A stretch of DNA of 64,000 nucleotides from Candidatus Poribacteria bacterium (GCA_965198235.1 OZ240248.1:896001-960000); one strand, 5' to 3'; positions 688 to 52,014 are shown, numbered from the stretch's first letter. Numbers and translations are program-made. The notes: generated by a model from the letters alone, not told the origin.

Positions 688-2636
688 TAAAGATTTAACA
701 CGCTCCCTTCAACGCGTGCAGTCGCCTGTCTGCCATCGCTGAAAGTTACCTGGAATTGTGTATTGGAGTCCTGTGAGATCGCCTCAGTCTTCGGTAACGG
801 AATGTCCTTCTGCTCCGTCCACTCTTGAATCAGTTTCGTGAGGGAGTCAGCGTCACTCGGTGCGGATTTCGCGTCTTTTAACTCAATGCTGAACGCCGGC
901 ACGTTCTTCTTGACGTAGTTAAACCAACGCGCCGTCCGTAGGAACGGCACGAGAGCCTGCAATGCTTCAGCAGTACCAACCCGACTCAATGCCTCCGATG
1001 AGAATCCACGCACATACGCCGACTCGCTCATCAATGCCTCTCGTAACGCAGGTATAGCCTCTGTTGCATCCGGTCCAATACGAGTCAATGCCTGCGCCGC
1101 AAAGAACGCTAAATCCGTGTCTTCACGATCTGTCAGAACTTCTACCAACGCGGGGACCGTCTTCGACACTGGCACTTTAATCATACCCAACGCTGAGGTT
1201 GCATGCCGTCGCACCTCTTCCGATTCATCCCTTAATAACGCAATAAGCCCATCAACTGCCTCCGCCGCGATCGGACCCATCTCGCCCAATGTATACGCCG
1301 CCGAAGCACGCACGTTCTCGCGTTCGTCCTGCAAAGCCGTTATGAGTGCAGGCACAGCCGACGCACCCGTTGCTGCGAGTCCGTGTGCTGCATCACAGAT
1401 ATGGAGAATCGGTTCCATATCAAACGCCTCTTTTTCCGAATCAAGCGCGCCAACGAGGGGTTTAACAGCGGGTTCCCCAATCGCACCGAGTGCATAGATA
1501 GCGTTTCGACGGACCGGTTCATAACTATCTTCAAGGGCATCTACAAGTGCTGAAACAGCCTCTGCACCATCCGTGCGCATAAAACCTAATTCGTTCGCCG
1601 CTTTCATACGCTCGTGCGGATTGTCTTTTTTCAACGCAGCAATCGCTGATGCTACATCCACCGTGGTATCTGGACGGTCAGTTTCATATAGATCGGTCTT
1701 GCCATACATCCAATTCCAGATATACGTCCAGAGGATCTCCGCATCGTAAGGAACGTGATTGACTCCAGGCGGTTGCCATATAGAGGTCTCACTGTTCCAC
1801 GAAGGCGTTGCCGGCTGCTCGGTACGCATAAAGACGAATTTCATACCGTAGCGATTCAGAGGAACATAATTCTGTAGGAACGAATGCACCATATCGAAGT
1901 GCATAATCCACACCGTGCCGAGTTCACCGGACATCGGGACCAGATTACGATTCAGGAAACTCTCAGAAAGTAGTCGCGTCCCGTTTCCACCCTCCGCATG
2001 TATCTCGTGCCGCTGGCGTTCACCATCCAGCATAAATTCTCGGATGTATTGCGTCCCGGGAATGATACAGGTTGGTCCCTGCTCGGCGAGGCAAGGTTGC
2101 GGATAATAGAAAAGAATCGCCCAGCGAGGCGTTCGATGCCGTGGTCGCTTCCCACCGGCGTGTCCATCTTTGTGAAACGGCATCATCAACCGCTCTTCGC
2201 CATCGTCCTTCCCGCTCGGTGTGCTTCCCGAACTTTTAACAGCAAGTTTTGGCTTGCAAGCTGCGCCAAAATTGGGATGGCAATGCCGATGTGGGTGCAT
2301 GACATATCCGTTCCCCAAAATACTGGTGAGCGCACCGCGCACCTCTGGAGATTCCAAGACTACCTGAAGCTCGGGCACTAACGGTAAAATGTTATTGAGC
2401 GGGTTGTGTTGCCTATCACCTCGGAAATCCATCGCTCCAGCAAAGAGTTCATCCGTTTTGTCGTAGATAGTTTCGTGGACGTGCATCGACACGTCAGCGG
2501 TGACGTTGACATACCCATTCACAATAAAATGACGAATCTGTTCATCGTTTAGAAGCTGCTGATTTTTAATTTTTCCTTGCGGTTCGGTCAGCTGGATTTC
2601 GCTTATCAAGAGCCTTCCCGTATATCCGCCCTCCAC
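645..2636 (-). CDS. PhyH-like 2OG-Fe(II) dioxygenase fused to HEAT/PBS-lyase repeats
   Basis: N-terminal 'LLNDEQIRHFIVNGYV', HxD (FHKDG), GPTCIIPGT and distal His (HFDMVH); C-terminal HEAT repeats (VRRNAIYALG, VRASAAYTLG, VRRHATSALG). Start uncertain because it lies in a repeat element. Confidence 0.85.
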   Translation of the reverse strand: MEGGYTGRLLISEIQLTEPQGKIKNQQLLNDEQIRHFIVNGYVNVTADVSMHVHETIYDKTDELFAGAMDFRGDRQHNPLNNILPLVPELQVVLESPEVRGALTSILGNGYVMHPHRHCHPNFGAACKPKLAVKSSGSTPSGKDDGEERLMMPFHKDGHAGGKRPRHRTPRWAILFYYPQPCLAEQGPTCIIPGTQYIREFMLDGERQRHEIHAEGGNGTRLLSESFLNRNLVPMSGELGTVWIMHFDMVHSFLQNYVPLNRYGMKFVFMRTEQPATPSWNSETSIWQPPGVNHVPYDAEILWTYIWNWMYGKTDLYETDRPDTTVDVASAIAALKKDNPHERMKAANELGFMRTDGAEAVSALVDALEDSYEPVRRNAIYALGAIGEPAVKPLVGALDSEKEAFDMEPILHICDAAHGLAATGASAVPALITALQDERENVRASAAYTLGEMGPIAAEAVDGLIALLRDESEEVRRHATSALGMIKVPVSKTVPALVEVLTDREDTDLAFFAAQALTRIGPDATEAIPALREALMSESAYVRGFSSEALSRVGTAEALQALVPFLRTARWFNYVKKNVPAFSIELKDAKSAPSDADSLTKLIQEWTEQKDIPLPKTEAISQDSNTQFQVTFSDGRQATARVEGSVLNLYHKRRVEAGFKAYR

Positions 2637-2652
2637 TTTGTTACGGGCTGCG
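2562..2652 (-). repeat. ~90-nt dispersed element, copy 1 (capped hairpin ... CCGCAAGGAAAAATT)
   Basis: Aligns end to end with 36701-36793 and, more loosely, with 51925-52014. Confidence 0.8.
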
Positions 2653-2766
2653 TATCAAGAACTTGCGCGTAATGAAATTAGGTTTCCTTAAATGGCATAA
2701 TTTTGCTTCGCAGTGAGAATGCTTTACATTTGGAGCGCAGTCAGATGCCCATAAATTAAAAACTTT

Positions 2767-3732
2767 TTAATACCATGCCGCCTTATTGACGACGTTCTGC
2801 AATGGCGCGCCTTCGGCGAACCGACGCGCGTTTTCCAAAAGAATCTCAAACCGCCGTGCCGGAAGGTTCTCCGCATCCTTCACAGCGATGTGTGGCGTTA
2901 TTAACACATTGGGCAGATGCCACAACCGACTTTCAGGAGGCAAAGGCTCAATTTCAAACACATCCAAGCCACATCCTGCAATGCTGCCCTGCTCAAGTGC
3001 CTCAACGAGATCGGCGAGTTTCGTCGTCTTACCGCGTCCGATGTTAATGAAGTAAGCCGTCCGTTTCATCAGGTCGAAGCGGTCTTTGTGCCACATTCCC
3101 TCGGTTTCAGGTGTGTGTGGTGTCGTGGTTATTACAAAATCGGCGAGTGGAAGGAGCGTGTCGAGTTCTGCAGAGTCATGTTTCTCTATAAAAGGCACCT
3201 CATATTCCCACCTCGGATCGACTCCGATCACTCTCATTCCGAATTCGTGGCAGAGTCGCGCGGTTTCATGCCCGATACCACCAACACCGACGATTAACAC
3301 CGTTGCTTGCGCGAGGTCAATGTATCCATTTTTGCGTGCATCTTTATCCCAAACACCTTCATGTTGTGCATCCATATAGTAAGGTAGCCCACGAGAAAGC
3401 GCAAGCACGAACATCATGATATGCTGCGAAATATGGTCGTTGTAAATACCGCGTGGGTTACAGGCAACGACGGGATGCTCGATCAACGCCGGATAATAAT
3501 AGCCCGGGAAGGGACCCGCAGCGGGGTTCTGTAGCCATCGTAGATTTTTCACCAACGGCAGCTGTTCCGGCGACACCCAACCGTAGACAGCATCGGCATC
3601 GGGAAGGTGTTTCTCTACTGCCTCGTCTGTCTCTGGTAAAACGACGGTGTATGTGGGCAATTCGTTTTGGAGGCGTTCAGCCCATTCGCGTAATTCCGCG
3701 TCCTGTGGCGGCATGATTATGAGTTTTGGCAC
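2767..3732 (-). CDS. D-2-hydroxyacid dehydrogenase, NAD-binding
   Basis: GVGGIG Rossmann motif, FINIGRG, LDVFEIEPL, ITPHIA. Confidence 0.92.
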   Translation of the reverse strand: MPKLIIMPPQDAELREWAERLQNELPTYTVVLPETDEAVEKHLPDADAVYGWVSPEQLPLVKNLRWLQNPAAGPFPGYYYPALIEHPVVACNPRGIYNDHISQHIMMFVLALSRGLPYYMDAQHEGVWDKDARKNGYIDLAQATVLIVGVGGIGHETARLCHEFGMRVIGVDPRWEYEVPFIEKHDSAELDTLLPLADFVITTTPHTPETEGMWHKDRFDLMKRTAYFINIGRGKTTKLADLVEALEQGSIAGCGLDVFEIEPLPPESRLWHLPNVLITPHIAVKDAENLPARRFEILLENARRFAEGAPLQNVVNKAAWY

Positions 3733-3821
3733 GGGTTTTGTTCCTCTCTGTAGTTTTTATGTCTAAGATACAACCATTTTAGCACAGTCGCCTCAGAAAA
3801 TCAAGACTTATAAAAAAACGC

Positions 3822-3849
3822 TTGAATGTCTACGAGATTTCAATATAAT
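3822..3849 (+). promoter_or_regulatory. sigma70-like promoter
   Basis: TTGAAT-16nt-TATAAT upstream of the helicase gene. Confidence 0.5.
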
Positions 3850-3902
3850 AGAGGTATTAGTAACTTATAGAAAACTCTAATTTGAAGTGTTGAGAAAACA
3901 TT

Positions 3903-5432: not shown

Positions 5433-5466
5433 AGGCACACACCGTATGCCGTAAAATCAGAATACT

Positions 5467-8188: not shown

Positions 8189-8191
8189 AAC

Positions 8192-14207: not shown

Positions 14208-14822
14208 ATGCAGTCCCAAAGCCCAGAAAGCCTTCCTCCAGAACGTAACGAGGATATTGAACTAATTGAGCGATTTCAACAAGGCGACACCGCCGCATTT
14301 GATATGCTCTTTACCCGCTACCAAAAACGCACCTACCGTTTGGTGCAACGCTTCGTCCCAAACCCAGAAGATGCATCGGACCTGACACAAGACGCTTTTA
14401 TACGCGCGTATCAAGGATTAGGCGACTTCAAGAGTCAGTGTCAGTTTTACAGTTGGCTTTACCGAATCACGGTGAATCTCTGTATCGATTTCCTACGGAA
14501 AAAAGCGAGATCGGAAGTACTCCTGTACAACTCCGACGAATCCGAGGAACTGCCGATGTCGAATATTCCGGATCCCCGCTCAGAATCACCAGCAAAAGCA
14601 ATCGAAAATAAGGAATTGAGAGCCCATATCCGGAAAGCAGTCCGTCGGCTTCCCCCAAAGCAGCGGCAAATCTTTATTTTACGACACTGGGACGGGCTAT
14701 CGCTTAAAGATATTGCTGCTACCGTTGGACGATCCGATGGAACAGTCAAAGCCCACCTGCTCCACGCGCATCGTAACCTTCGCAAACATCTCCGCCCTTA
14801 CCTACGAGAAACAGATTTTTAA
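14208..14822 (+). CDS. ECF sigma-70 factor
   Basis: DLTQDAFIRAY, FYSWLYRITVNLCID, LPPKQRQIFILR, GTVKAHL; SD GAGGAG. Confidence 0.92.
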   Translation: MQSQSPESLPPERNEDIELIERFQQGDTAAFDMLFTRYQKRTYRLVQRFVPNPEDASDLTQDAFIRAYQGLGDFKSQCQFYSWLYRITVNLCIDFLRKKARSEVLLYNSDESEELPMSNIPDPRSESPAKAIENKELRAHIRKAVRRLPPKQRQIFILRHWDGLSLKDIAATVGRSDGTVKAHLLHAHRNLRKHLRPYLRETDF

Positions 14823-14838
14823 ACTATAAGCACTCGCG

Positions 14839-14948
14839 CATCGTTCCACTACGTTTCACGATGGTTACTGATTTAGTTGAAGCCGCTTCTGTTGCAAAAG
14901 CCCTGTTTGAATACATCGGAAACCACCGCGTAATGAAATGGAGCGGTG
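14839..14948. repeat. divergent pair of GNA-capped hairpins
   Basis: (-) CATCGT-GAAACGTAGTGGA-ACGATG and (+) CACCGC-GTAATGAAATGGA-GCGGTG. Confidence 0.75.
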
Positions 14949-15068
14949 CTCAGGTGTTAATCATTTAAAAATTGTATGCGCGCTGACTCAGGGCGCATAC
15001 TTCCACGATGTAGGTAAGGGATCAAGTCTCGAAACGTCTTACGCGTAGACACCAGTACTCGGTATCCC

Positions 15069-16061
15069 TTACGCGTCTGCTGTCTCATCTGCGAAGAGTG
15101 CCTCAACGAAATCCGCACCCGTGAAATCTCGCAAATCGTCGAGCTTCTCACCAATACCGATAAGTTTGACAGGTGCACCGATTTCCGCATTCACCGCGAT
15201 TACGATACCCCCTTTGGCAGTGCCATCCAGTTTTGTAACTGCTACTCCCGTAATCGGTACTGCATCATTGAAAATCTTTGCCTGCATCAGGGCGTTTTGA
15301 CCAACAGTTCCATCAACGACAAGCAGGACCTCATGGGGTGCACCGGTGTGCGCTCGTCCCATCACACGTCCAATCTTCGACAATTCATCCATCAGTGGTT
15401 TTTTGGTATGCAACCTGCCGGCAGTGTCCACAATGAGTACATCCGCATCGCGATGCTTCGCTGCGTGAATCGCATCGAAGACGACAGAGGCGGGTTCAGC
15501 ATTTTCACCGCCCCGGATGAGTTCGGCTCCAGCACGCTCACACCAAATACTGAGTTGATCCTCCGCTGCCGCGCGGAACGTATCACCCGCGGCAACAAGC
15601 ACGCGGCATCCGTTCGTAGTAAAACGACTTGCAAGTTTGCCGATAGTTGTCGTTTTTCCCGCACCATTCACACCCAACACCAAAATCGTATACGGTTTCT
15701 CATCTTTAATTTGCAACGGCACATCTTCTCCAAGCAAATTCAGAATTTCCGATTTTAGGACGGATGCCAACTCTGAAGAATCGATTAACCCTTCCGACTT
15801 CACCCTTTCTCTAACATTATCCATTAAGGTCAAGGTCGTATCAACTCCTACATCTGACTGGATTAAAATCTCCTCAATCTCTTCCATCAGATCTTCGTCA
15901 ATTCTTCTCCCAACCCGTAGTAGCCCCGACAGCTGAGACAGGAACTGGTCCCGGGTTTTCGTCAAGCCGGACTTGAGCCGATCAAACCAGTTTCCTTGCT
16001 TATCTACAGCCTCGGATTTATCGTGGCTTTTATCATCACCTTTAAACAAATTCCTGAGCAT
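15069..16061 (-). CDS. ftsY: signal recognition particle receptor FtsY
   Basis: GVNGAGKTTT, DTFRAAA, DTAGRL, TKLDGTAKGG. Confidence 0.97.
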   Translation of the reverse strand: MLRNLFKGDDKSHDKSEAVDKQGNWFDRLKSGLTKTRDQFLSQLSGLLRVGRRIDEDLMEEIEEILIQSDVGVDTTLTLMDNVRERVKSEGLIDSSELASVLKSEILNLLGEDVPLQIKDEKPYTILVLGVNGAGKTTTIGKLASRFTTNGCRVLVAAGDTFRAAAEDQLSIWCERAGAELIRGGENAEPASVVFDAIHAAKHRDADVLIVDTAGRLHTKKPLMDELSKIGRVMGRAHTGAPHEVLLVVDGTVGQNALMQAKIFNDAVPITGVAVTKLDGTAKGGIVIAVNAEIGAPVKLIGIGEKLDDLRDFTGADFVEALFADETADA

Positions 16062-16458
16062 TATCTTTCCTTTTTTCTCCTTATATTGTGTCTATAACTT
16101 TCAGCAGAAACCTTGCCCGCTTCTTTCATATAATACAGTAACAACAAGCAAAAAGGCAAACGAAAATTCGCATGGACATCCACAACAATGTAAATAAAAA
16201 ATTTACTGAGACATCGTATCTTTTTAGAGGATAGGTTCCCAAAAAAGAGCACGGTGTTTCAAGGCGTACAAATTTCCTTGAACACTTCGCCATTTTGTTG
16301 TATACTAAATTGTGTCATTAAGATACAAATTTTTTCCATTATATTTCAAACCATTAAAGAGATCTTCTTGGAAAAATTAGATTGAGGAAGAGTGAGGTGG
16401 GAAACTTCACTAGTGAAATACAAAACCCATCTGTTCTTAAAAAAATGAGGTATTCATC

Positions 16459-32570: not shown

Positions 32571-32763
32571 TTATGGTGAATTATACAATTAACTTGACAT
32601 TTTTGAGTTGTAGGAGGGGGGAAATCCGCAGAAACCCCCAAGCAAAAACACTCCGATTCCCGACTCTCAACGTGTATAGTCGCGATTCGGAGATCGCTCC
32701 TACAGAAAATGTGTCAACATATTTTGATAATTCACTATAGTAGGCGCGGTTTGCTACCGCGCC
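32571..32763. mobile_element. composite MITE-like element plus adjacent REP
   Basis: Terminal inverted repeats TATGGTGAATTATACAATTAACTTGACA / TGTCAACATATTTTGATAATTCACTATA, internal GTAGGAG...CTCCTAC, followed by GTAGGCGCGGT-ttgct-ACCGCGCC. Confidence 0.7.
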
Positions 32764-33930: not shown

Positions 33931-35349
33931 CTAACCATCCAAATGGAAGACCGCCATCTTCAATTCGGTCATCTCTTCTATGGCGTATTTCGGACCCTCT
34001 TTGCCCATACCGCTCTCTTTGACCCCGCCATACGGCATTAGATCCGCACGCCACTGTGTACCCCAGTTCACCATCAGGTTGCCAGATTCGACTTCACGGA
34101 CAAACTTCATTGCCCAATCGACGTTCTGTGTGAAGATCGCGGCACTCAGCCCATAGTTCGTATCGTTAGCGAGTGCTATAGCCTCGTCGATGTCGTTGAC
34201 GCGCGTCACACCGACTGCCGGTCCGAAGACCTCGTCACAGGAGATTTTCATCTCCGGTTTGACGTTGGCAAGGATAGCAGGCGTAACAAATTGATCCTGC
34301 TTATCTCCACCCGTGAGGAGCTCTGCTCCATCCGCGACAGCCTCTTGAATCCATTCGGCAACACGAGTTGCATCCCCTTCTCGAATCATCGGTCCCATCC
34401 GTGTTCCTTCTGCAAGCGGGTTGCCGGTGTTAATTTGAGCGACTTCCGCTTGGAAAGCATCTAAGAAATCACCGTAGATTTTCTCATGGGCGATAACGCG
34501 CTGCGTTGAGATACAGACCTGTCCTGCATTAGAATAACCGGATGCCGTCGCTGCGCGTGCGACCTTTTCGGGATCCGCATCGGGCATGACGATGAGCGGT
34601 GAATTCGAGCCGAGTTCCATTGTGACACGCTTTAACCCTGCGACCTTACAGATATGCTCGCCAACATCACGGCTACCGGTAAAGGTAATTTTTCGGACGC
34701 GACTATCTGCGCAGAGGGTATCACCGATTTCGCCACCGGGTCCTGTCACACACTGAATCGCCTCAGGCGGTGTCCCCGCTTCCAAAAAGAGTTCCACCAG
34801 TTTTAGAGCAGAAAGCGGTGTATCCGTCGCAGGTTTGATGATAATAGCGTTTCCACCGGCGATAGCGGGACCGGCTTTGTGGCAGACAAGGTGCAGTGGG
34901 AAATTGAAGGGGCTAATGCCAGCAACAATACCACACGGCATGCGTACTGTAAAGCCGAGTTTGTCCTTAACACCGGGCGCACCTTCAAGGGGAATCGTCT
35001 CACCGGTCAATCGTTTCGCTTCCTCTCCAGAGAGGGCGATAATTTCGGAAGCGCGCGTCGCTTCGATTGTCGCCTCGGCGAGAATCTTCCCCTCTTCGCG
35101 GGTGATAACCTCGGCGAGTTCGCCTGCCCGTTCTACCATCAAATCCGCAACTTTACGCAGGATCTCGTAGCGTTCATAGCCCGTCATCCCTGCCATAATT
35201 TTTGCACCGCGTTCTGCGGTTTGAATAGCGGTTTCAACGTCGGCTGTATCCCCTCTCGGAACGGTGTCAACAACCGAACCGTCGAAAGGACTCAGTACGT
35301 CAATTTTATCGGATTTATCAATCCATTCTCCGCCTACGTGCATTTGCAT
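33931..35349 (-). CDS. aldehyde dehydrogenase family protein
   Basis: SPFNFPL, FTGS, MELGSNSP, GQVCIS, EVFGP, NYGL, PYGGVKESG. Confidence 0.95.
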   Translation of the reverse strand: MQMHVGGEWIDKSDKIDVLSPFDGSVVDTVPRGDTADVETAIQTAERGAKIMAGMTGYERYEILRKVADLMVERAGELAEVITREEGKILAEATIEATRASEIIALSGEEAKRLTGETIPLEGAPGVKDKLGFTVRMPCGIVAGISPFNFPLHLVCHKAGPAIAGGNAIIIKPATDTPLSALKLVELFLEAGTPPEAIQCVTGPGGEIGDTLCADSRVRKITFTGSRDVGEHICKVAGLKRVTMELGSNSPLIVMPDADPEKVARAATASGYSNAGQVCISTQRVIAHEKIYGDFLDAFQAEVAQINTGNPLAEGTRMGPMIREGDATRVAEWIQEAVADGAELLTGGDKQDQFVTPAILANVKPEMKISCDEVFGPAVGVTRVNDIDEAIALANDTNYGLSAAIFTQNVDWAMKFVREVESGNLMVNWGTQWRADLMPYGGVKESGMGKEGPKYAIEEMTELKMAVFHLDG

Positions 35350-35458
35350 AATGTATTTCTCCCCATTCTCGCTTTTAGGCATACGGTGTGTGGTCAGGCA
35401 CAAGACCTGGGAAACACCCAAGCAAAAACCCCCTACAGCACACGGATGCGCCTGTTAT

Positions 35459-35573: not shown

Positions 35574-36578
35574 TTAGACTCGACAATTATCAAGCGCGTC
35601 CTCGTCCAATTCAACCCCTAATCCGGGTTTATCTGGAACAGTTGCGTATCCGTCAACAAGCGGAATCGTTGAAGGTGTAACGAGGTCAAAAGCGCGCAAA
35701 GCATTGAGTGTAATCGCTGGCATGGTTGCATTCGGCATCACTGCGGCAAGATGCATAACATAGCAGGTCGTAATACCGAGCCCGACAATTTGTAGCCAGA
35801 CCGGAAGATGGGCAGCGTCTGAAATAATCGCCTCTCGTTTGGCATTGGCAGCGCGTGAGTCCGGGTAAGCGATAATAAATGAGTCGTTCATATTTGCCCG
35901 TATTGCTTCAATTGGATCCGGGTTACCGAAGTGGATTGTTATCGGTATGTCAGTGTGTCGCTTGATCTCTTGATATCCGGCAATGTCGGCTTGTGGGATC
36001 GGCGTTTCAAATGACTCTATATTATAACCATGGAGCTGACGTGCGACTTCAAGGGTACGTTCTGGGGTTTCAAACGAATCGTTTGCGTCAACGCGGAGTC
36101 GATAATCATCCGGCACAACCCCTGCAATTGCCTCCACCTGCTCAAGCACTTCAAACCATGGGCGGGCTTTGATTTTGTGGAGTCGGTAGCCGAGCGCGTA
36201 AGCGTGTTGTGCTTCTGCCGCCCACTCCTCCGGTGTCATGTCAATCGACCAGTAGCCGAACGACGTTTTGTCGTGAACCTTTTCGCCTAAAAGTTGATGC
36301 ACCGGCACACCAAGTGCTTTCCCTATGATGTCGTAAAAAGCCTGCTGGAGAGGCGTGGGTGCCCAGCCATTCATAAATTCAAACGGATTTCTACTGATGT
36401 AGCGCTGAACGACATCGTCCGCCTGAAACGCGCCATCACCAATCCCAATGAGTCCTACATCGGTGTGCACCTTGTAGACGTAATCAATCTGGTAAAGATT
36501 ACGACGCGTCATGAGTTCATAAATGCCTTCATGATACGGCACTTTCACTTCGATAACGTCAATCTGGGTAATCTTCAT
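35574..36578 (-). CDS. mandelate racemase/muconate lactonizing enzyme family (enolase superfamily)
   Basis: GKALGVPVHQLLG, KIK, RVDAN, FETP, PGLGVELD. Confidence 0.9.
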   Translation of the reverse strand: MKITQIDVIEVKVPYHEGIYELMTRRNLYQIDYVYKVHTDVGLIGIGDGAFQADDVVQRYISRNPFEFMNGWAPTPLQQAFYDIIGKALGVPVHQLLGEKVHDKTSFGYWSIDMTPEEWAAEAQHAYALGYRLHKIKARPWFEVLEQVEAIAGVVPDDYRLRVDANDSFETPERTLEVARQLHGYNIESFETPIPQADIAGYQEIKRHTDIPITIHFGNPDPIEAIRANMNDSFIIAYPDSRAANAKREAIISDAAHLPVWLQIVGLGITTCYVMHLAAVMPNATMPAITLNALRAFDLVTPSTIPLVDGYATVPDKPGLGVELDEDALDNCRV

Positions 36579-36601
36579 ATTTTTACTGATGGCCTCCCGG
36601 G

Positions 36602-36793
36602 CTGCTCTCCACTTCGTTACGAGCAGGTTTCTGATTAAGTCTCAACTATGTTTAGGAATTTTGACATTTCTTTATATCTTAGAAACATTAAACCAAAACC
36701 TTAGCCCGTAAGCGTAGCGGAGGGCGGATATATGGCAGGGTTTTTCAACCTCTCAGCCGCCCTGACCAAACCGCAAGGAAAAATTAGAAAATA
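36602..36793. repeat. GNA-capped hairpin (-) plus ~90-nt element copy 2 (+)
   Basis: (-) CTGCTC-GTAACGAAGTGGA-GAGCAG; (+) GCCC-GTAAGCGTAGCGGA-GGGC...CCGCAAGGAAAAATTAGAAAAT. Confidence 0.8.
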
Positions 36794-36813
36794 AGCACGA
36801 GCGTCATCGTGAA

Positions 36814-37266
36814 TTATTCATCACGGCGGATCCAACTGACGACATCTTCTGCCTCACCTGTACCACCTTCAACACCATCGCTCCCGAAAGAAATGAGATC
36901 GTACCCGTAACGGTCATGGTTACCGGGGCGAACATAGATATATGGATTCCCCCACGGATCTTCCGTGATTGGGATTTGAATATAGGGCTCTACCCAGTTT
37001 ATAGGTCTTGGTGGTGCTTCAGGCATTTCCCAAAGTGCCTTCAATCCCTGTTCAGTCGAAGGATAATCACCGTTATCTTTGGCGTACCTATCAAGAGCGA
37101 TACCAAGCGTTTCAATATCCTCAGCGGCTTGTGCTTGCAAAGCGCGCCCAGCCTGCCCGAGCAACCGAGGTGCCAAAAGGACAGCCGCGATAATTCCGAG
37201 AACGATGACGACAACTAAGATTTGTATTGATGTTAATCCTGCTTGTTTAGAATCGATTGATTTCAC
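36814..37266 (-). CDS. gspG: type II secretion major pseudopilin GspG-like
   Basis: Prepilin-like G|LTSIQILVV, YPSTEQGLKAL, DPWGNPYIY, SFGSDGVEGG; SD GGAGG + GTG at 37266. Confidence 0.85.
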   Translation of the reverse strand: MKSIDSKQAGLTSIQILVVVIVLGIIAAVLLAPRLLGQAGRALQAQAAEDIETLGIALDRYAKDNGDYPSTEQGLKALWEMPEAPPRPINWVEPYIQIPITEDPWGNPYIYVRPGNHDRYGYDLISFGSDGVEGGTGEAEDVVSWIRRDE

Positions 37267-37432
37267 GTATTTTCCTCCGCTCACCTGACATAGCAAAGAT
37301 GAAATAGTTATCAGTGACCAGTAATAAGATGCTCGACGAAGTCAACGGCTTTTATAGCTACTGACGACTGATAACCGCTTTTTAAGTGTATCACATCCCG
37401 CGAATTGTGTCAACTTTTTCAGCAAAATTCTC

Positions 37433-41050: not shown

Positions 41051-41155
41051 AATACAACCTCCTTTACTTTTTACAGTAAGTTTTAAATCGCAAACTATTC
41101 CACTTTAGAATAGCAAGTTTTGGCTTGCAAGCTGCGCCACTTCTTATAGCAAGTT

Positions 41156-41707
41156 TTAAATCGCAAACTCCTCCAAAAGGGGATGCTCCAAAACGGATGC
41201 GACTTCCGTCCAAGCTTCTTTGCTATTCTCATGTGAAAGGTCTGGTATGAAGCCAAAGTCAAGATAAACTTTGATTGCTGCCATACGCCCGGTTGACGTA
41301 CCGAGAAAACAACGTTCGTGGGATTGTTTCAGACGCTCCATTGCTACAGTCATCATCGGTTTGGAAAGCCCGCGTCCTTGGTAGTCGGGATGAATCACTA
41401 CCCAGTGGATCTGTCCCCACACTTCTCCATCTATATTTTGCCACCACGCCGTAATTGTGCCGATTTCCTCGCCTGTGTCCGTCGTTAGGTAAAAACTTCT
41501 ATCCTCCATCACTGAGAGATGGCGTTTAAACTCGCGATCAAAAAGTCCGTCGTCAATGTCAGCGTACGGCTCCCCTGCTTTCAGAATCCGCGTCCAGATA
41601 TGCCCTTCATTCCGACGATAATTCCGGATTGCGAATCCTTCTGGAATCGGGAATTGTGGGATATTTTCCATGTTCTCACGAATCATTCTGACACTATAAT
41701 TTTTCAT
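41156..41707 (-). CDS. GNAT family N-acetyltransferase
   Basis: VIHPDYQGRGLSK and AAIKVYLDFGF. Confidence 0.9.
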   Translation of the reverse strand: MKNYSVRMIRENMENIPQFPIPEGFAIRNYRRNEGHIWTRILKAGEPYADIDDGLFDREFKRHLSVMEDRSFYLTTDTGEEIGTITAWWQNIDGEVWGQIHWVVIHPDYQGRGLSKPMMTVAMERLKQSHERCFLGTSTGRMAAIKVYLDFGFIPDLSHENSKEAWTEVASVLEHPLLEEFAI

Positions 41708-45671: not shown

Positions 45672-45684
45672 AAACTTTCTTTTA

Positions 45685-47319: not shown

Positions 47320-47446
47320 TTTCCGTTCCCTTCTGCCAAATGTTTCAATGGGATATTGTATTACATCCGGTTGATGAAATCAACAGTGAATTCAGTTTTA
47401 TAGGCGTACTCAGTTTCCAGTATGTCGATTCAGTAACCGCAATTCG

Positions 47447-48367: not shown

Positions 48368-48375
48368 TTTGGGTT

Positions 48376-49500: not shown

Positions 49501-49634
49501 GGGACTACCCAGTTAGGTTAGAAGTTTGGTGTAAAATACAGCACGCTTAAGCCAACGGTATATCTATCAATTCTACTATAATTATACCACATAATAGCGG
49601 ATTTGTCAGGAAAAATTCTGGGACTATGGGGTAT

Positions 49635-49803
49635 CTATGGTAGATTTTAGAATTAATTGGACATTAGCATTGGCGAGGTGTTTTTGATAGGGGTGTTTTT
49701 GCTTGGGGTTTTTGATAGGGTGTTTCTGCGGATTTCTGTGGATTTCTGCGTATTTCCTCAAGGAAACCTCGCCTACCAATTCTAAGGAAAATCTCGCCAG
49801 CGG
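49635..49803. repeat. MITE-end plus REP whose loop is expanded by short tandem repeats
   Basis: TATGGTAGATTTTAGAATTAATTGGACATT...TGGCGAGGT (GTGTTTTTG-like)x3 (TTTCTG[C/T]G)x3 AACCTCGCCTAC; unexpanded relative at 62296-62358. Confidence 0.7.
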
Positions 49804-49812
49804 CTGGCTTGA

Positions 49813-50631
49813 TTAATCAGGTACGGCAAAGCGGTTAGGGGAGAGGAAGAGACGGGTCGCTTTTAGGAACCGGATTCCTTCATAGGCATCTCGTTTATGG
49901 AGGAGTTGGGCGTTATCGTAAATTAGCATGTCTCCCATGCGCCATTTGTGCTGATAGATGTGTTCAGGACGAAATTGATACGAAAGCAACTCGTCTTTAA
50001 GTGCTTTGCCTTCTACGGCTCCCAGTCCTTCAAAGCCGTGGGCACCGGGACTGACGTAGAGGGTTTTGACACCGGTCCCAGGATTTGTGAGGACAACAGG
50101 ATGTGTGACTTCGATATCCGGAACACCATGTTTCTTTCCCGGACTGTACAGCACCTTCATGTTATTAACACGGTCCTTGAGTGCAGGCGGCAGGGATTCG
50201 TACCCCATCCGAGTGCTACTGAAACTCGTACTCCCACCCGATTCCGGGGAAATCACGCAGAAAAGTGTAGACAGAGTAGCTGGATTTTGTCGATATGCTT
50301 GATCGGAATGCCACCCGCCATCCGTATTGTCAACAAAATTTCCTCTGATGAGTGTTCCGTCGAGACTATTGATATTGGCAAGGTAGATGACGGATTTGAA
50401 ACCCGGACTGTGGTTGTCTTTAGCAGCAGGAGGCTCTTCAACAGGTCCGAGTGCCTTACTGAGTCGATAGATGTCATCGTCGTGAAGGGATTGTCGGCGA
50501 AAGAGAAGGAGTGCGTGCTTTTGGACAGTCGATAAGACGGCTTCTGCCATATCTTCATCAATCTGCGTTAGGTCTACATTTAGGACTTCAGCACCGAAGT
50601 TTTCTGATAAGGGTCTGGTTTGAAAGTCCAT
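49813..50631 (-). CDS. TauD/TfdA family dioxygenase
   Basis: FGAEV, WHSD (HxD), GGSTSF, HPVV, WRMGDMLIYDN, LHKR. Confidence 0.92.
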   Translation of the reverse strand: MDFQTRPLSENFGAEVLNVDLTQIDEDMAEAVLSTVQKHALLLFRRQSLHDDDIYRLSKALGPVEEPPAAKDNHSPGFKSVIYLANINSLDGTLIRGNFVDNTDGGWHSDQAYRQNPATLSTLFCVISPESGGSTSFSSTRMGYESLPPALKDRVNNMKVLYSPGKKHGVPDIEVTHPVVLTNPGTGVKTLYVSPGAHGFEGLGAVEGKALKDELLSYQFRPEHIYQHKWRMGDMLIYDNAQLLHKRDAYEGIRFLKATRLFLSPNRFAVPD

Positions 50632-50662
50632 CTACGTTTATATGTTTTCAGGTTGGACGATA

Positions 50663-50734
50663 GTTGGGTTTCACTTCGTTCAACCCAACCTACGATTTAC
50701 TGGGGAACCGGTGCGGTTAGGAAACCGCACCTAC
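50663..50734 (-). repeat. two tandem GTAG-REP hairpins
   Basis: (-) GTAG-GTTGGGTT-GAACGAAGTGA-AACCCAAC and GTAG-GTGCGGTT-tcct-AACCGCAC. Confidence 0.8.
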
Positions 50735-50757
50735 TTCGATTAGGACGGGATAAAGAA

Positions 50758-51924
50758 TCAGCCGATCTGCCAATCCTCTTTTCCGGCGTAGTGATCATCG
50801 TACACATCTTCATCAAGTCCCAGCCCAAGCCCGGGGGTATTCGGTACGGTGAACGTTCCACCGGTGAAGGCGTAGCCAGAGGTATCAATTACATCGCTCG
50901 TGAGAGTTGCGACTTCGCCGTAGAGGAAATGGGGAATCGTTTTGCCGAATTGAAGACTGAGGTAGAAGCCGAGCAGAGAACCCCAGTTATGGGGGGCACA
51001 TCGAACACCGTGTGCGGAAGCCATATCCGCGAGTCGTCGCCAGCCAGTAACGCCGAGTCCCTTCATATCGTGCTGGATGACATCAATAACACCCGCCTCA
51101 AAGAAGGGATCGTAGAATTCAAGTGGGTCGCGCGTTCGAGTCTCACCATCGGCAATGAAGGTTTCCAATCCCTTTTCTTGGATGAAGGCTTTGAGATTGC
51201 GGTACAATTCAACCTCTTCCTCAAACATCTCCTCTATCCAAAAGACATCACAGTTGCTCGTCTCATTCAAGAAGGTAATGACTTCATCGTAAGTGTAGGC
51301 GTTGTTTGCATCGACGAGAATATTGAAACCTTCGCCTGCGGTGCTACGGGCAAGTTGGACAAGCTCTATGTCCCGTTGCAGTCCCGCTCTGCGTTCCATG
51401 AGATGATTACCGCGCCCGATTTTCATTTTGCATGCGGTAAATCCGTTGGCGAGACTGCTTTTGACATCATTCTCGATTCGTTTAAGCCCTTCGGCTCTTG
51501 TCTCATACAGGAGATCGTTGAAATAGATGGTGCTGTCGTAAGCGGGCAATTCGTTTGAAAAAACATCGTCACCGATGAGTTGATAAGCTGGCTTCCCGAG
51601 GATTTTGCCGATTGTGTCCCAGAGGGCGTTTTCAAGCCCACGAAATTCCTCAACAACCCCGTCTTCAGGGTTTAAGAGGTCAAACGGGTTTTGGTTGAGC
51701 ACACCTTCTGCATTTTCAGCGGTTGTTGTTCCCCAACTGCCAGCCCCCCAACCAAGTGTACCATCGTTGGTATGGATGCGGATAATACGTTCGTTCCATT
51801 TCCCGTTCGGATCAGGCTGGTTAATCTCCGTTGCACCGGAGTTACAACCAATGGCAGGCTGATCTACTTCGACCGTAACCTGCTCAACTTTGGTAATTTT
51901 GATACCCGTTGGATAATTTCGCAT
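50758..51924 (-). CDS. mandelate racemase/enolase superfamily enzyme
   Basis: ALWDTIGK, KMKIG, VDANN, WIEE, ADGE, PHNW, PGLGL. Confidence 0.9.
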   Translation of the reverse strand: MRNYPTGIKITKVEQVTVEVDQPAIGCNSGATEINQPDPNGKWNERIIRIHTNDGTLGWGAGSWGTTTAENAEGVLNQNPFDLLNPEDGVVEEFRGLENALWDTIGKILGKPAYQLIGDDVFSNELPAYDSTIYFNDLLYETRAEGLKRIENDVKSSLANGFTACKMKIGRGNHLMERRAGLQRDIELVQLARSTAGEGFNILVDANNAYTYDEVITFLNETSNCDVFWIEEMFEEEVELYRNLKAFIQEKGLETFIADGETRTRDPLEFYDPFFEAGVIDVIQHDMKGLGVTGWRRLADMASAHGVRCAPHNWGSLLGFYLSLQFGKTIPHFLYGEVATLTSDVIDTSGYAFTGGTFTVPNTPGLGLGLDEDVYDDHYAGKEDWQIG

Positions 51925-52014
51925 ATTTCTAATTTTCCTTGCGGATGAGGCAAATGGGTTGGAGACTTTGAAGTGCCTTTCTTAGAACCGCTTTCCATTA
52001 CGTTCCAAGCTGCG
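51925..52014 (-). repeat. ~90-nt element copy 3, directly abutting the ATG
   Basis: (-) GCTT-GGAACGTAATGGA-AAGC ... CCGCAAGGAAAATTAGAAAT-ATG. Confidence 0.7.

What the first reader, a model, noticed from the sequence alone, without database searches (positions are those of the whole stretch)
2628..52010. Hairpin family with covarying stems and a conserved GNA-triloop cap
Seen: GCCC-GTAACAAAGTGGA-GGGC (2628 -), CATCGT-GAAACGTAGTGGA-ACGATG (14839 -), CACCGC-GTAATGAAATGGA-GCGGTG (14924 +), CTGCTC-GTAACGAAGTGGA-GAGCAG (36602 -), GCCC-GTAAGCGTAGCGGA-GGGC (36704 +), GCTT-GGAACGTAATGGA-AAGC (51990 -), plus a variant at 50663. Stems differ but stay paired. The cap is GNA + 2-bp stem + mostly GNA triloop + GGA, and its mini-stem also covaries (AC/GT, AT/AT, GC/GC). 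Two loci are divergent pairs. Known: GNA triloops and sheared G.A pairs give very stable ssDNA hairpins, and HUH enzymes such as RAYT/TnpA recognise hairpins. Inference: a structure-selected recognition motif for an enzyme encoded outside this window.
Basis: partly seen in the sequence, partly recalled or inferred. Interest (0 to 1): 0.78.

Follow-up and report, generated by a model that had tools for sequence, protein, structure and literature searches.

The report
Poribacterial gene-start repeat with capped hairpin
The hairpins are real and structure-selected, but each is the front end of a larger repeated cassette, apparently confined to the sponge-symbiont phylum Poribacteria, that sits directly against gene start codons and has replaced the ordinary ribosome-binding site of many unrelated genes.

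Summary
They exceed chance. Covariation holds in larger alignments: 56 copies chosen without regard to stems and 79 unique copies (0 of 500 shuffles reach the observed score).

The hairpin (P1) is not a free-standing motif. It is the 5' module of a composite intergenic element with two forms:
- **Class A**, about 93 nt: P1, a variable middle, then ACCGAA-CCGCAAGG-AAAATTAAAAA-ATG.
- **Class B**, about 60 nt: P1 with a 6-bp stem, then YCCAGGAG..AAATTAAAAA-ATG.

A genome scan with the class A 3' motif returned 122 loci, 112 of them titled Poribacteria.

The element is co-oriented with genes and abuts start codons at a fixed distance. It precedes unrelated housekeeping genes, including cistrons inside a nuo operon. 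It also occurs as tandem arrays, divergent pairs and gene-less orphans. At orthologous sites it is present in one species and absent in another, and the empty alleles carry an ordinary Shine-Dalgarno sequence.

Best reading: P1 acts in the transcript of an insertion-polymorphic gene-start (5'UTR/RBS) cassette. I found no support for the HUH/RAYT idea, but it is not excluded. No Rfam match or paper was found.

The parts
2562..2654 (-). Class A element W1. P1 hairpin at 2628-2648, middle segment, CCGCAAGG at 2575-2582, A-rich tail. It lies 5' of the HEAT-repeat gene 645-2636(-).
   Evidence: (R1 41.1 bits, E 9.7e-9). No ATG follows at the usual position, and the ORF is open through the element.
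14815..14875 (-). Class B element W2. TAAATCAGTAAC, then P1 at 14839-14863 (6-bp stem), then CGCGAGTG..TTTAAAAAT. It is an orphan pointing into the 3' end of the ECF sigma gene (14208-14822 +).
   Evidence: (30.8 bits, E 6.4e-6).
14912..14972 (+). Class B element W3. TACATCGGAAAC, then P1 at 14924-14948, then CTCAGGTG..TTTAAAAAT. It is an orphan pointing at the terminator and 3' end of ftsY (15069-16061 -). It forms a divergent pair with W2. The arms are about 70% identical by my hand count from the sequences, and the two stem differences are compensated within each arm.
   Evidence: (36.5 bits, E 1.8e-7).
36579..36638 (-). Class B element W4. TTAATCAGAAAC, then P1 at 36602-36626, then CCCGGGAGGCCATCAGTAAAAAT. 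It directly abuts the ATG (36578) of an enolase-superfamily (MR_MLE) gene that is followed by an aldehyde dehydrogenase gene.
   Evidence: (38.5 bits, E 5.1e-8).
36699..36791 (+). Class A element W5. P1 at 36704-36725 (14-nt cap variant), CCGCAAGG at 36771-36778. It is an orphan that runs into the terminator hairpin (36796-36811) and 3' end of the T2SS pseudopilin gene (36814-37296 -). It is the divergent partner of W4.
   Evidence: (23.7 bits, E 5.8e-4, not in the model's training set).
51925..52016 (-). Class A element W6. P1 at 51990-52010, CCGCAAGG at 51937-51944. It abuts the ATG (51924) of a second MR_MLE gene that is followed by a TauD dioxygenase gene.
   Evidence: (35.5 bits, E 3.4e-7).
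50632..50689 (-). Probable diverged relative W7. An 8-bp hairpin at 50663-50689 with the cap GAACGAAGTGAA, 31 nt 5' of the TauD ATG (50631), between two co-directional genes.
   Evidence: (z -2.04). Model R1 did not find it at E<=10, so membership is unproven.

Best explanation
The hairpin (P1) is the 5' stem-loop of a modular intergenic repeat specific to Poribacteria. I describe this repeat as a 'gene-start cassette'.

**Shown**
- The cassette runs from about 8 nt 5' of P1 to an A-rich tail that usually touches a start codon.
- It has a long form and a short form that share P1 and the terminal AAATTAAAAA.
- It is co-oriented with the neighbouring genes.
- It precedes functionally unrelated genes, including cistrons inside operons.
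- It is present or absent at orthologous sites. Where it is present, the ordinary Shine-Dalgarno spacer of the 'empty' ortholog has been displaced or overwritten.

**Inferred**
- The cassette is transcribed with the downstream gene, as a 5'UTR or as an intercistronic segment.
- Its 3' module (AAGGA plus an unstructured A/U-rich tract) supplies translation initiation.
- P1 works in the RNA as a stable hairpin with a sequence-specific cap. The cap reads as stem, then G.A / N.G / A.G non-canonical pairs, then a 2-bp mini-stem, then a GNA triloop.
- P1 either protects the 5' or processed end of the message or is the docking site of a dedicated RNA-binding factor.
- New copies arise by an unknown insertion or recombination process, which also leaves tandem arrays, back-to-back pairs and gene-less orphans such as three of the six window copies.
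For: **Composite nature**
- Of the 91 canonical hairpins found in 1.49 Mb, 58 are followed within 110 nt by CCGCAAGGAA. Of the other 33, 31 have a variant of that module or the class B tail and two are spurious.

**Phylum restriction, as far as scanned**
- 112 of 122 loci are titled Poribacteria. Three 'uncultured bacterium' loci also carry the element. The other 7 look like chance matches.

**Link to gene starts**
- Of 175 3' modules, 120 are followed by an ORF of >=80 aa that starts 12-45 nt from the C of CCGCAAGG.
- The start is at 20 nt in 72 of the 120, at 19 nt in 16 and at 21 nt in 6. It is ATG in 107 of 120.

**Orientation in co-directional spacers**
- P1 is sense in 49 and antisense in 8. 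The 3' module is sense in 97 and antisense in 14.

**Generic cargo**
- The 96 downstream proteins include tRNA synthetases, purine enzymes, GatB, RuvA, ABC permeases and ECF sigma factors.
- They also include nuoD, nuoJ, nuoL and nuoM within a single locus.

**SD reading**
- The 688 genes without the element use GGAG peaking 7 nt and AAGG peaking 9 nt before ATG, with AAGG ranging over 7-12 nt.
- The element's AAGG sits 12 nt before ATG in 58 of 91. That is the far edge of the natural range, which would explain why the tail must touch the ATG.
- No general TANNNT peak is seen 6-7 nt upstream of starts.

**Replacement of native ribosome-binding sites**
- L059 (empty) has TGA-18 nt-GAGGAG-7 nt-ATG. 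L039 (filled) has about 190 nt ending in the cassette at the same ATG.
- L003 against L030 shows an insertion between the native SD and the ATG.
- L010, L068 and L020 show three states at one site.

**Structure selection**
- Cap positions are invariant while stems change by compensation.
- 28 distinct stem/N/mini-stem combinations occur among the 79 copies.
- An alternative P1 of the same length turns two of the cap's opposed positions into Watson-Crick pairs (G.A to G-C, U.G to C-G). It is found in 24 of 148 copies. This is my position-by-position reading.
- The sense strand folds better than the antisense strand in 79 of 79 copies.
Against: **No expression data.** No transcript or 5'-end data were available, so transcription of P1 together with the gene is inferred from orientation only.

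**No promoter in the repeat.** The repeat unit carries no conserved promoter 5' of P1. Only 21 of 72 upstream regions resemble one another, and that is because of neighbouring copies.

**A promoter-like hexamer.**
- The 6 nt after CCGCAAGG are AAAATT, AAAAAT, TAAAAT, TATAAT or TAAATT. The second base (A) and sixth base (T) are conserved in all five common variants.
- This hexamer lies 6 nt before the ATG. That is the geometry of a -10 box driving a leaderless mRNA.

**Weak SD positions.**
- The class B GGAG lies 14-15 nt before the ATG, outside the natural SD range.
- The class A AAGG is only at the edge of that range.

**P1 is dispensable for the 3' module.** 47 of 148 pattern-anchored copies have no recognisable intact P1. 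By eye, roughly 15 of these are degenerate and about 30 lack it altogether.

**Orphans.** 55 of 175 modules abut no ORF.

**G.U pairs are almost absent.** There are 2 among the 224 cells of the four varying P1 pairs in A1, and 3 among 395 inner cells in A2. This is unusual for an RNA helix.

**The cap matches stable ssDNA motifs.** C-GNA-G triloops and sheared G.A pairs are known stable ssDNA motifs. I recall this and did not test it.

**The extended leaders do not fold unusually well.** z-scores for the three class A leaders (W1, W5, W6) were -0.5 to +0.75, and no conserved second helix was found.
Confidence: 0.45

Rival explanations
1. **DNA-level mobility signal.** P1 is a single-strand DNA hairpin recognised by an HUH (RAYT or IS200/IS605-like) or other transposition or recombination enzyme encoded elsewhere. 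The cassette is a non-autonomous mobile element. Its expression signals are cargo that lets insertions next to genes survive.
For: - Insertion polymorphism at orthologous sites.
- Tandem arrays.
- Orphans: 55 of 175 modules.
- Subfamilies of P1 and of the middle segment.
- Different P1 variants at orthologous genes, for example L003 against L030 and L041, L080 and L006.
- A 216-nt back-to-back pair in L073 with 20-nt perfect terminal inverted repeats, absent from L043.
- G.U pairs are almost absent.
- The cap is a textbook stable ssDNA motif (GNA triloop, sheared G.A). This is recalled, not tested.
- AG precedes the stem in 63 of 79 copies and GTAG in 23 of 79.
Against: - No HUH-like ORF was found by a recalled-motif screen of 1.54 Mb. 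This is a weak test.
- No transposase appears among the 46 window ORFs.
- Only 4 A/A pairs with inverted termini occur among about 180 modules.
- No consistent target-site duplication or target tetranucleotide is seen at the junctions I read.
- There is only one P1 per unit, not a hairpin at each end as in IS200/IS605 elements.
- Compensation is within each hairpin, not between the arms of a pair.
- The fixed register to start codons and the 86-87% sense orientation need an expression-linked explanation as well.
Confidence: 0.15
2. **Punctuation cassette.** The 3' module is a -10-only promoter placed so that transcription starts at the A of the ATG, giving a leaderless mRNA. P1 belongs to the upstream transcript as a terminator or 3'-end stabiliser, or acts as an insulator.
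For: - The hexamer after CCGCAAGG follows -10 logic: the second base (A) and sixth base (T) are conserved in the common variants. TATAAT occurs 14 times, TAAAAT 16 and TAAATT 12 among 182 modules.
- The ATG lies 6 nt after the hexamer in 72 of 120, 5 nt in 16 and 7 nt in 6.
- The start codon is ATG in 107 of 120.
- The class B tails read TAAATT-AAAAA-ATG.
- A subset of copies has P1 followed by GGGGTTTTTGC, which looks like an intrinsic terminator.
- 54 of 66 intergenic P1 have a same-strand gene upstream.
Against: - There is no -35-like element at 16-18 bp, and class A and class B share nothing there (my reading).
- The sigma-70 scan flags none of the modules.
- Genes without the element show clear SD use and no TANNNT peak, so leaderless starts are not a habit of this phylum.
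- Window copy W4, which is gene-associated, does not fit the geometry: ATCAGT lies at -12..-7.
- Canonical P1 has no U-tract. It lies a median of roughly 115 nt from the upstream stop codon, far for a terminator.
- In pairs between convergent genes, P1 is antisense to both genes.
- Four cassettes sit inside one nuo operon, where termination would be costly.
Confidence: 0.15
3. The hairpins are chance palindromes or ordinary terminators with no common origin.
For: - Stems are short (4-6 bp).
- Nearest-neighbour energies are modest: mean -5.7 kcal/mol with RNA parameters and -2.5 with DNA parameters.
Against: - Enrichment over shuffles.
- Bimodal stem lengths.
- Covariation with 0 of 500 shuffles reaching the observed score.
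- Seven invariant cap positions in 79 copies from about 30 or more assemblies.
- A constant downstream module.
Confidence: 0.01

Closest known systems
REP / REPIN elements mobilised by RAYT (HUH Y1) transposases
   Same: - Short extragenic palindromes in high copy.
- They sometimes occur as inverted doublets separated by a spacer. REPINs are defined that way in the abstract of PMC3337134 (search listing).
- Structure matters.
- A purine-rich tetranucleotide sits at the foot of the stem. GTAG precedes P1 in 23 of 79 copies.
   Different: - P1 is only one module of a 60-105 nt directional element that ends at a start codon.
- Stems vary with within-hairpin compensation instead of being near-identical copies.
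- Doublets are a minority and point outwards.
- Orientation follows the genes.
- No RAYT was found in the sample (weak test).
Correia repeat-enclosed elements (CREE) of Neisseria and other expression-active MITEs
   Same: - Small non-autonomous repeats next to genes that alter the expression of the neighbouring gene.
- The abstract of PMC2649163 (search listing) says a CREE can generate a promoter at either or both ends, bind IHF, and bind RNase III.
- Here the termini carry -10-like hexamers, including TATAAT.
- One complete back-to-back copy has 20-nt inverted termini and is absent from the ortholog.
   Different: - Most copies here are single and directional, without terminal inverted repeats.
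- The end abuts the ATG at a fixed distance and carries an SD-like AAGGA.
- No TA-type target duplication was seen.
- It belongs to a different phylum and has no sequence similarity to anything in Rfam, the phage set or the plasmid set.
Transcribed mosaic intergenic repeats (BIME, ERIC, and pneumococcal BOX / RUP / SPRITE)
   Same: - Modular: interchangeable P1 variants, middle segments and an optional 23-nt insert.
- Located in transcribed intergenic space, including inside operons.
- Hairpin-forming.
- PMC3049150 and PMC2229807 were seen in the search listing only. The module lore is recalled.
   Different: None of those families, as far as I recall, supplies the ribosome-binding region itself or is fused to start codons in most copies.
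5' stem-loop / STAB-SD type mRNA stabilisers, and CsrA-type GGA leaders
   Same: - A hairpin upstream of an SD-like element placed too far from the start to act as a normal SD (class B GGAG at 14-15 nt).
- The class A consensus carries four GGA motifs: in the P1 cap, after P1, in ACGGA and in the AAGGA.
- The comparison itself is recalled knowledge.
   Different: - Those are single-gene leaders, not a dispersed repeat.
- No partner protein was tested here.
- The alternative P1 variant lacks the GGA.

Membership tests
REP/REPIN (RAYT-dependent) | Short imperfect palindrome, extragenic, in many copies | tested here: met
   P1 is 21-25 nt. 91 canonical copies were found in 1.49 Mb, and 66 of the 72 placed relative to ORFs are intergenic.
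REP/REPIN (RAYT-dependent) | Conserved GT[AG]G at the 5' foot of the hairpin (feature recalled from memory) | tested here: inconclusive
   GTAG in 23 of 79 and xxAG in 63 of 79.
REP/REPIN (RAYT-dependent) | Two near-identical REPs in inverted orientation forming the mobile unit (abstract of PMC3337134, search listing) | tested here: not met
   - Most copies are single. An inverted partner lies within 130 nt upstream of about 7 of 89 P1.
- Only 4 A/A pairs were found.
- The window pair's arms are about 70% identical (my hand count), with compensation inside each arm.
REP/REPIN (RAYT-dependent) | Cognate single-copy RAYT gene flanked by the repeats | not testable with these tools
   Only the window and about 1.5 Mb of flanks are held. 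The recalled-motif screen found 0 candidates, and no such Pfam family occurs among the 46 window ORFs.
IS200/IS605-type PATE | Subterminal hairpins at both ends, no inverted termini, insertion 3' of a fixed tetra- or pentanucleotide (recalled) | tested here: not met
   There is one P1 per unit. The 3' end has only a CC-GCAA-GG mini-hairpin. The left junctions read share no common target.
MITE (DDE-type) | Terminal inverted repeats plus target-site duplication | tested here: inconclusive
   - The L073 pair is 216 nt with 20-nt perfect inverted termini and is absent from L043.
- Pairs are rare, however, and no clear duplication was seen. A possible AATAAT repeat occurs at the L030 junction.
Any Rfam family | Match at the gathering score | tested here: not met
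   - 0 matches in the window and in 7 loci totalling 140 kb.
- In E-value mode around two elements, only chance-level hits with E >= 1.6.
Intrinsic terminator | GC-rich hairpin followed by a U-tract | tested here: not met
   - Canonical P1 is followed by CGGATATACGG.
- The terminator scan flags none of the window P1.
- Only a subset in other genomes has P1 plus GGGGTTTTTGC.
Leaderless-mRNA promoter | TANNNT-like -10 box 6-7 nt upstream of an ATG that is the transcription start | tested here: inconclusive
   The sequence geometry is met in class A. However, no -35 is present, the phylum's other genes are SD-led, W4 does not fit, and there are no 5'-end data.
Shine-Dalgarno-led translation initiation region | Anti-SD-complementary core at a functional distance from the start codon | tested here: inconclusive
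   AAGG lies 12 nt before ATG in 58 of 91, inside but at the edge of the natural range of 7-12 nt. The class B GGAG lies at 14-15 nt, outside that range.

The most novel reading that the evidence does not exclude
A self-propagating 'gene-start' cassette has overwritten the native ribosome-binding sites of perhaps a few hundred genes per genome across a whole bacterial phylum. This would place them under one shared RNA leader. The capped P1 hairpin, together with the repeated GGA motifs, would be the docking site of a dedicated global RNA-binding regulator. The gene-less orphans and tandem arrays would then be transcribed as decoys that titrate that factor. In short, it would be a post-transcriptional regulon built by transposition. 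The copy number per genome is an extrapolation and from the window density.
Probability: 0.12. Interest if true: 0.85.

Novelty: new variant of a known kind. Interest (0 to 1): 0.62.

Why it matters
**If the reading holds.** Poribacteria, which are uncultured sponge symbionts, would carry a dispersed repeat that does more than sit between genes. It would provide the translation-start region, and possibly a promoter, for housekeeping genes and for cistrons inside operons. It would also have displaced ordinary Shine-Dalgarno spacers. That would be a clear natural case of mobile or recombining DNA rewiring gene starts on a genome-wide scale.

**What it offers for experiments.**
- A compact, testable RNA or ssDNA motif with an unusual non-canonical cap.
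- A 25-nt 'portable' initiation module, ACCGAACCGCAAGGAAAATTAAAAA-ATG, that could be assayed in a laboratory host.

**Practical use now.** The element is a handy marker for Poribacteria contigs: 112 of 122 loci matching an 18-19-nt pattern were titled Poribacteria. It should also be masked or modelled when start codons are called in these genomes.

**Status in the literature.** I found no Rfam family. The four full-text searches pairing 'Poribacteria' with hairpin/repeat/intergenic, RNA motif, repetitive elements or untranslated region returned no paper describing it.

Tried and rejected
- **Known RNA families.** Rfam found nothing at the gathering score in the window or in 7 loci, and only chance-level hits in E-value mode. 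No tRNA or tmRNA is present.
- **Riboswitch or regulon for the two MR_MLE-dioxygenase operons.** Dropped once 96 downstream genes proved functionally unrelated. PhyH occurs in 9 of 96 and AP_endonuc_2 in 7 of 96, and both families are common in this phylum anyway.
- **A second conserved helix in the class A middle segment, or pairing that would mask the start region.** RNAalifold predicts only P1 and the 2-bp CC-GCAA-GG. The correlated subfamily differences I saw by eye (ATACGG with ACCGAA, TTTAAGAAAGG with GTTTCT or GTTTAA) give at most 3-5 bp, and I did not count them as structure. The class A leader folds are no better than shuffles.
- **ECF-type or sigma-54-type promoter, K-turn, sarcin-ricin or UAA/GAN reading of the cap.** I checked these by eye against consensus sequences recalled from memory. 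None fits. These were not formal tests.
- **Sigma-70 promoter and terminator scans around the window copies.** No promoter was predicted on the relevant strand upstream of P1 or at the 3' modules. The scan did find the terminator of the pseudopilin gene at 36796-36811.
- **A-versus-T variant after CCGCAAGG as a test of SD against -10.**
  - Overall, A abuts an ORF in 87 of 132 and T in 14 of 48.
  - Among copies not selected by my scan pattern it is 9 of 22 against 14 of 48, so the difference is mostly ascertainment.
- **T-variant modules as promoters of known small RNAs.** No Rfam gene lies downstream of them.
- **Conserved promoter 5' of P1.** There is only a weak TTAA/A-rich signal. Upstream regions resemble one another only where another copy sits there.
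- **HUH transposase screen.** A pattern recalled from memory gave 0 hits in 1.54 Mb. This is a weak test.
- **Phage and plasmid collections.** No match to a class A element.
- **G.U against A.C asymmetry as an RNA-versus-DNA test.** There were too few non-Watson-Crick cells to say anything.
- **Not checked.**

Full report
**1. The observation**

Reading the window at the stated places shows all six hairpins on the stated strands, plus the variant at 50663. Their caps fit G-N-A-A-Y-(GNA)-R-T-G-G-A.

In the window, G-N-A-A + 6-7 nt + GGA closed by at least 4 pairs occurs 8 times. These are the six hairpins plus two overlapping matches at 29217. Fifty dinucleotide-preserving shuffles gave 1.82 +/- 1.49, maximum 6. 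Single-sequence folding recovers the outer stem in five of the seven regions and the mini-stem in four of them (W1, W4, W2, W7). W5 and W6 fold differently in the minimum-energy structure.

- The mini-stem of the 51990 copy has a C.A mismatch.
- The 36704 copy has a 14-nt cap.

**2. Context in the window**

The window has 48% G+C. It encodes ECF sigma factors of the PF07638 type, HEAT-repeat proteins, a T2SS pseudopilin, 3-keto-disaccharide hydrolase-like proteins and similar.

Relative to genes:
- 2628(-), 36602(-) and 51990(-) lie 5' of genes on the same strand. These genes are a HEAT-repeat protein and two enolase-superfamily genes, each followed by an oxidoreductase or dioxygenase.
- 50663(-) lies between two co-directional genes.
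- 14839(-) and 14924(+) lie back to back between the convergent ECF sigma and ftsY genes.
- 36704(+) points at the 3' end of the pseudopilin gene.

Three copies (2628, 36704, 51990) are followed about 50 nt later by CCGCAAGGAAAA(A)TTARAAA. This gives 3 matches against 0.48 expected. The other three have 6-bp stems, are preceded by T(A/T)(A/C)ATC(A/G)G(A/T)AAC, and are followed by about 24 nt ending in AAAAAT. I call these class A and class B.

**3. Relatives**

- 112 loci are titled Poribacteria.
- Three 'uncultured bacterium' loci (L009, L094, L116) carry the same element.
- Seven loci from unrelated taxa show no element and are in line with chance.

So the window is Poribacteria-like, and the motif is a hallmark of that phylum as far as this scan can tell.

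There were 148 unique copies anchored on the pattern in the Poribacteria loci. Their P1 types were:

| P1 type | Copies |
|---|---|
| Canonical cap | 64 |
| Same-length alternative hairpin GCCTGCAACAACGGCGCAGGC | 24 |
| AGCCCAAACAACGTGCCGGGCT | 10 |
| Long insert | 3 |
| None of these | 47 |

By eye, roughly 15 of the 47 have a degenerate P1 and about 30 have only the last 25 nt or so, from ACCGAA onward.

A position-by-position comparison of the canonical and alternative hairpins shows that two of the cap's opposed positions become Watson-Crick pairs (G.A to G-C, U.G to C-G). I read that as evidence that these cap positions face each other.

**4. Anatomy**

The class A consensus from 56 aligned copies is:

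(A-rich)NNAG-[GCYY-GNAAY-GNA-RTGGA-RRGC]-CGGATATACGG-variable-CAAAYCCACCTGACCGAA-CCGCAAGG-AAAATTAAAAA-ATG

Class B, seen in 12 or more copies, is:

TTAACCRAAAAC-[CTGCNC-cap-GNGCAG]-YCCAGGAG-N(3-6)-TAAATTAAAAA-ATG

Both classes share P1 and the terminal AAATTAAAAA.

In 1.49 Mb there are 91 canonical hairpins with at least 4 closing pairs. Of these, 58 are followed by CCGCAAGGAA within 110 nt. Of the remaining 33, 31 have a variant of that module or the class B tail, and two are spurious coding or overlap matches.

The repeat unit begins about 8 nt 5' of P1. Upstream regions carry only a weak TTAA/A-rich signal. They resemble one another in 21 of 72 cases, and only because another copy, tandem or inverted, lies there.

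Some copies carry a 23-nt insert straight after P1 (GGGGTTTTTGCTTGGGTGTTTCTTCAG). It turns P1 into a terminator-like hairpin with a T-run. The same short repeat occurs on its own in the window.

**5. Structure selection**

RNAalifold on the 56 class A copies, which were chosen without any stem criterion, predicts only P1 and a 2-bp CC-GCAA-GG.
- The P1 stem pairs are CG:UA = 45:11, 39:13 and 32:23.
- The varying mini-stem pair is 32:23.
- At most 3 of 56 are broken per pair, and only 2 G.U cells occur among the four varying pairs.

On 79 unique canonical copies (alignment A2) the named structure gave the following:
- Covariation score 0.572, against 0.256 +/- 0.014 in shuffles. None of 500 shuffles reached it.
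- 128 cells changed on both sides, against 40.7 expected.
- At most 0.213 when partners are slid by 1-3 columns.

That set was selected for paired stems, so only the pair-type mix counts as evidence, not the percent paired.

Without the stem filter the loop motif has 161 unique matches. Their stem lengths are bimodal: 36 with 0 bp, 15 with 1, 4 with 2, 21 with 3, 69 with 4, 1 with 5 and 15 with 6. About 45 chance matches are expected from the information content of the motif. That figure is my arithmetic.

Further points:
- Seven cap positions are invariant in the 79 copies.
- The triloop is GAA in 49, GTA in 24 and GGA in 2.
- Stem type, the N base and the mini-stem type combine in 28 ways. 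The compensation therefore does not come from a few amplified master copies alone.
- The sense strand folds better than its complement in 79 of 79 copies under both RNA and DNA parameters.
- A covariance model from A2 finds exactly the six window copies (E <= 6e-4). The next hit is at E 0.21 (16332-16350, an AT-rich look-alike), and the 50663 variant is not recovered.

**6. Relation to genes**

Of 175 3' modules, 120 are followed by an ORF of at least 80 aa that starts 12-45 nt after the first C of CCGCAAGG.
- The start is at 20 nt in 72, at 19 nt in 16, at 21 nt in 6, and at 18 or 22 nt in 3 each.
- The start codon is ATG in 107, TTG in 9 and GTG in 4.
- 55 modules have no such ORF.

In spacers between co-directional genes:

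| Module | Sense | Antisense |
|---|---|---|
| Canonical P1 | 49 | 8 |
| Alternative P1 | 16 | 5 |
| 3' module | 97 | 14 |

The 96 different downstream proteins scanned with Pfam are unrelated to one another. They include amino-acid kinase, LeuRS, HisRS, GatB, RuvA, PurH, PurL and PurQ-type enzymes, carbamoyl-phosphate synthase, ABC transporter parts, ECF sigma factors, sulfatases and 9 PhyH. They also include nuoD, nuoJ, nuoL and nuoM in one locus, L037. This rules out a pathway-specific riboswitch or regulon and shows that the element sits inside operons.

**7. Insertion polymorphism**

All-against-all BLAST of the loci found syntenic pairs from different assemblies. In 45 aligned spacers at least one partner carries a module, and many are filled in one and short in the other. 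The junctions I read were:
- **L059 against L039.** L059 has stop-18 nt-ATG with GAGGAG 7 nt before the ATG. L039 has about 190 nt ending in a class A element at the same ATG.
- **L003 against L030.** L003 has GGAG-AATA-ATG. L030 keeps that native SD but has about 200 nt (one truncated and one full element) inserted between it and the ATG.
- **L020 against L010.** The difference is one class A unit with sharp ends.
- **L010, L068 and L020.** One site shows three states: empty, a 20-nt solo module, and a full element.
- **L043 against L073.** L073 carries a 216-nt back-to-back pair with 20-nt perfect inverted termini.

Orthologous genes also carry different P1 types and middle segments. Examples are L003 against L030, and L041, L080 and L006. 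The element is therefore gained, lost and exchanged, and where it is present it takes the place of the ordinary ribosome-binding spacer.

Tandem arrays occur in L015, L031, L099, L118, L070 and L077. Only 4 class A/class A inverted pairs were found. Class A/class B or B/B pairs such as the two in the window recur in L032, L041, L057 and L070.

**8. What the 3' module is**

There are two readings.

*(a) Ribosome-binding region.*
- The 688 candidate starts without the element show a normal SD profile. GGAG peaks 7 nt, AGGA 8 nt and AAGG 9 nt before ATG, and AAGG is still frequent at 12 nt but rare at 13. There is no TANNNT peak.
- The element's AAGG sits 12 nt before ATG in 58 of 91 and 11 nt in 12.
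- That is the far edge of the functional range. It would explain why the tail has to touch the ATG.

*(b) A -10 box for a leaderless mRNA.*
- The hexamer after CCGCAAGG is AAAATT (88), AAAAAT (25), TAAAAT (16), TATAAT (14) or TAAATT (12). The second base (A) and sixth base (T) are conserved in all of these.
- It lies 6 nt before the ATG in most copies.
- The class B GGAG is too far away (14-15 nt) to be an ordinary SD.

Against (b):
- No -35 element is present, and the two classes share nothing in that region.
- The phylum is SD-led.
- The gene-linked window copy W4 does not fit the geometry.
- Cassettes occur inside a nuo operon.

I favour (a), but (b) is a live rival. The two are not mutually exclusive.

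**9. What P1 does**

Shown: it is a strand-specific, structure-selected hairpin with a sequence-constrained cap. It always lies upstream of, and co-oriented with, a gene-start module.

Inferred as most likely: it acts in the RNA, either as a protective or processing-defining stem-loop at or near the 5' end of the message (or of the downstream cistron), or as the docking site for a factor.

The alternative is that it is needed in single-stranded DNA for copying the element. That fits the insertion polymorphism, the near absence of G.U pairs and the cap's resemblance to stable ssDNA motifs (recalled). I could not find any partner enzyme. The recalled HUH motif gave 0 hits in 1.54 Mb, and no transposase occurs among the window's 46 ORFs. 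The architecture also differs from REP/REPIN and IS200-type elements (see the membership table).

**10. Comparison and novelty**

The nearest known kinds are transcribed interspersed repeats and expression-active MITEs:
- **Correia elements.** Their abstract says they can create promoters at their ends and bind RNase III (PMC2649163, search listing).
- **REP/REPIN.** PMC3337134 and PMC3116915, abstracts in the search listing.
- **BOX/RUP and MITEs in general.** PMC3049150, PMC2229807 and PMC10969869, listing only.

The differences here are:
- a directional unit fused to start codons;
- replacement of native SD spacers;
- a non-canonical capped hairpin with invariant cap positions;
- restriction to one candidate phylum.

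Rfam has no matching family. No similar DNA exists in the phage or plasmid sets. Four full-text searches pairing Poribacteria with hairpin/repeat/intergenic, 'RNA motif', 'repetitive elements' or 'untranslated region' returned nothing relevant. Subscription journals and supplements were not searched.

I rate it a new variant of a known kind.

**11. Limits**

- There are no expression data.
Class B and hairpin-only copies were therefore sampled only in flanks.
- ORF starts were called mechanically.
- Density estimates (68 unselected 3' modules in about 1.3-1.4 Mb; 7 copies in this 64-kb window) extrapolate to a few hundred copies per genome, but that figure is not a count.

Noticed in passing
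window 24675-24686(-), 32637-32648(-), 35417-35428(-), 49681-49720(+); also fused after P1 in L003, L014, L028, L035, L121 and others: A second short repeat, GGGG-TTTTTGCTTGGG-(T/G)GTTTCT, with a variant TTTTTGATAGGG. It occurs alone in either orientation, in a tandem trio flanked by an inverted repeat (49660-49790), and as a 23-nt insert that gives P1 a terminator-like T-run.
   Followed up: partly
window 2556-2582(-) and gene 645-2636(-); L097; L010 around 10019: The gene behind element W1 has no ATG, GTG or TTG at the usual position (AAAAAT-CAG-CAG...). Its frame stays open back through the whole element. The ortholog-like locus L097 shows the same. In L010 the position of the ortholog's GTG start holds ACG. 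Possible explanations are non-canonical starts, decayed starts or assembly errors.
   Followed up: partly
L037 4633-13718: Four class A elements sit between cistrons of one NADH dehydrogenase (nuo) operon, before nuoD, nuoJ, nuoL and nuoM. One of them is a tandem pair.
   Followed up: partly
window 41055-41175 and 2221-2268: Direct repeats of 31-48 nt (TACAGTAAGTTTTAAATCGCAAAC... and AATAGCAAGTTTTGGCTTGCAAGCTGCGCCA) lie upstream of the GNAT gene. One copy lies inside the HEAT-repeat gene region and is 97% identical to a copy at 41109.
   Followed up: no
window 35574-36578 with 33931-35421, and 50758-51924 with 49813-50631: Two paralogous enolase-superfamily (MR_MLE) genes are each preceded by a cassette and followed by an oxidative enzyme (aldehyde dehydrogenase; TauD dioxygenase). 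PhyH dioxygenases make up 9 of the 96 genes behind cassettes in other genomes.
   Followed up: partly
window 16332-16350(-): An AT-rich look-alike of P1 (TTT-GAAATATAATGGA-AAA) lies in the divergent spacer between ftsY and a cytochrome P460 gene. Model R1 gives E 0.21, so it is probably not a member.
   Followed up: yes
window 36796-36811 and 14977-15003: Hairpins that look like terminators of the pseudopilin gene and of ftsY lie directly after the tails of the orphan elements W5 and W3. If those orphans are transcribed, they would give short RNAs of roughly 85-130 nt.
   Followed up: no
all loci: Poribacteria gene order is strongly co-directional. Of 716 spacers of at least 40 nt, 550 lie between same-strand genes, 90 are divergent and 76 are convergent.
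   Followed up: no
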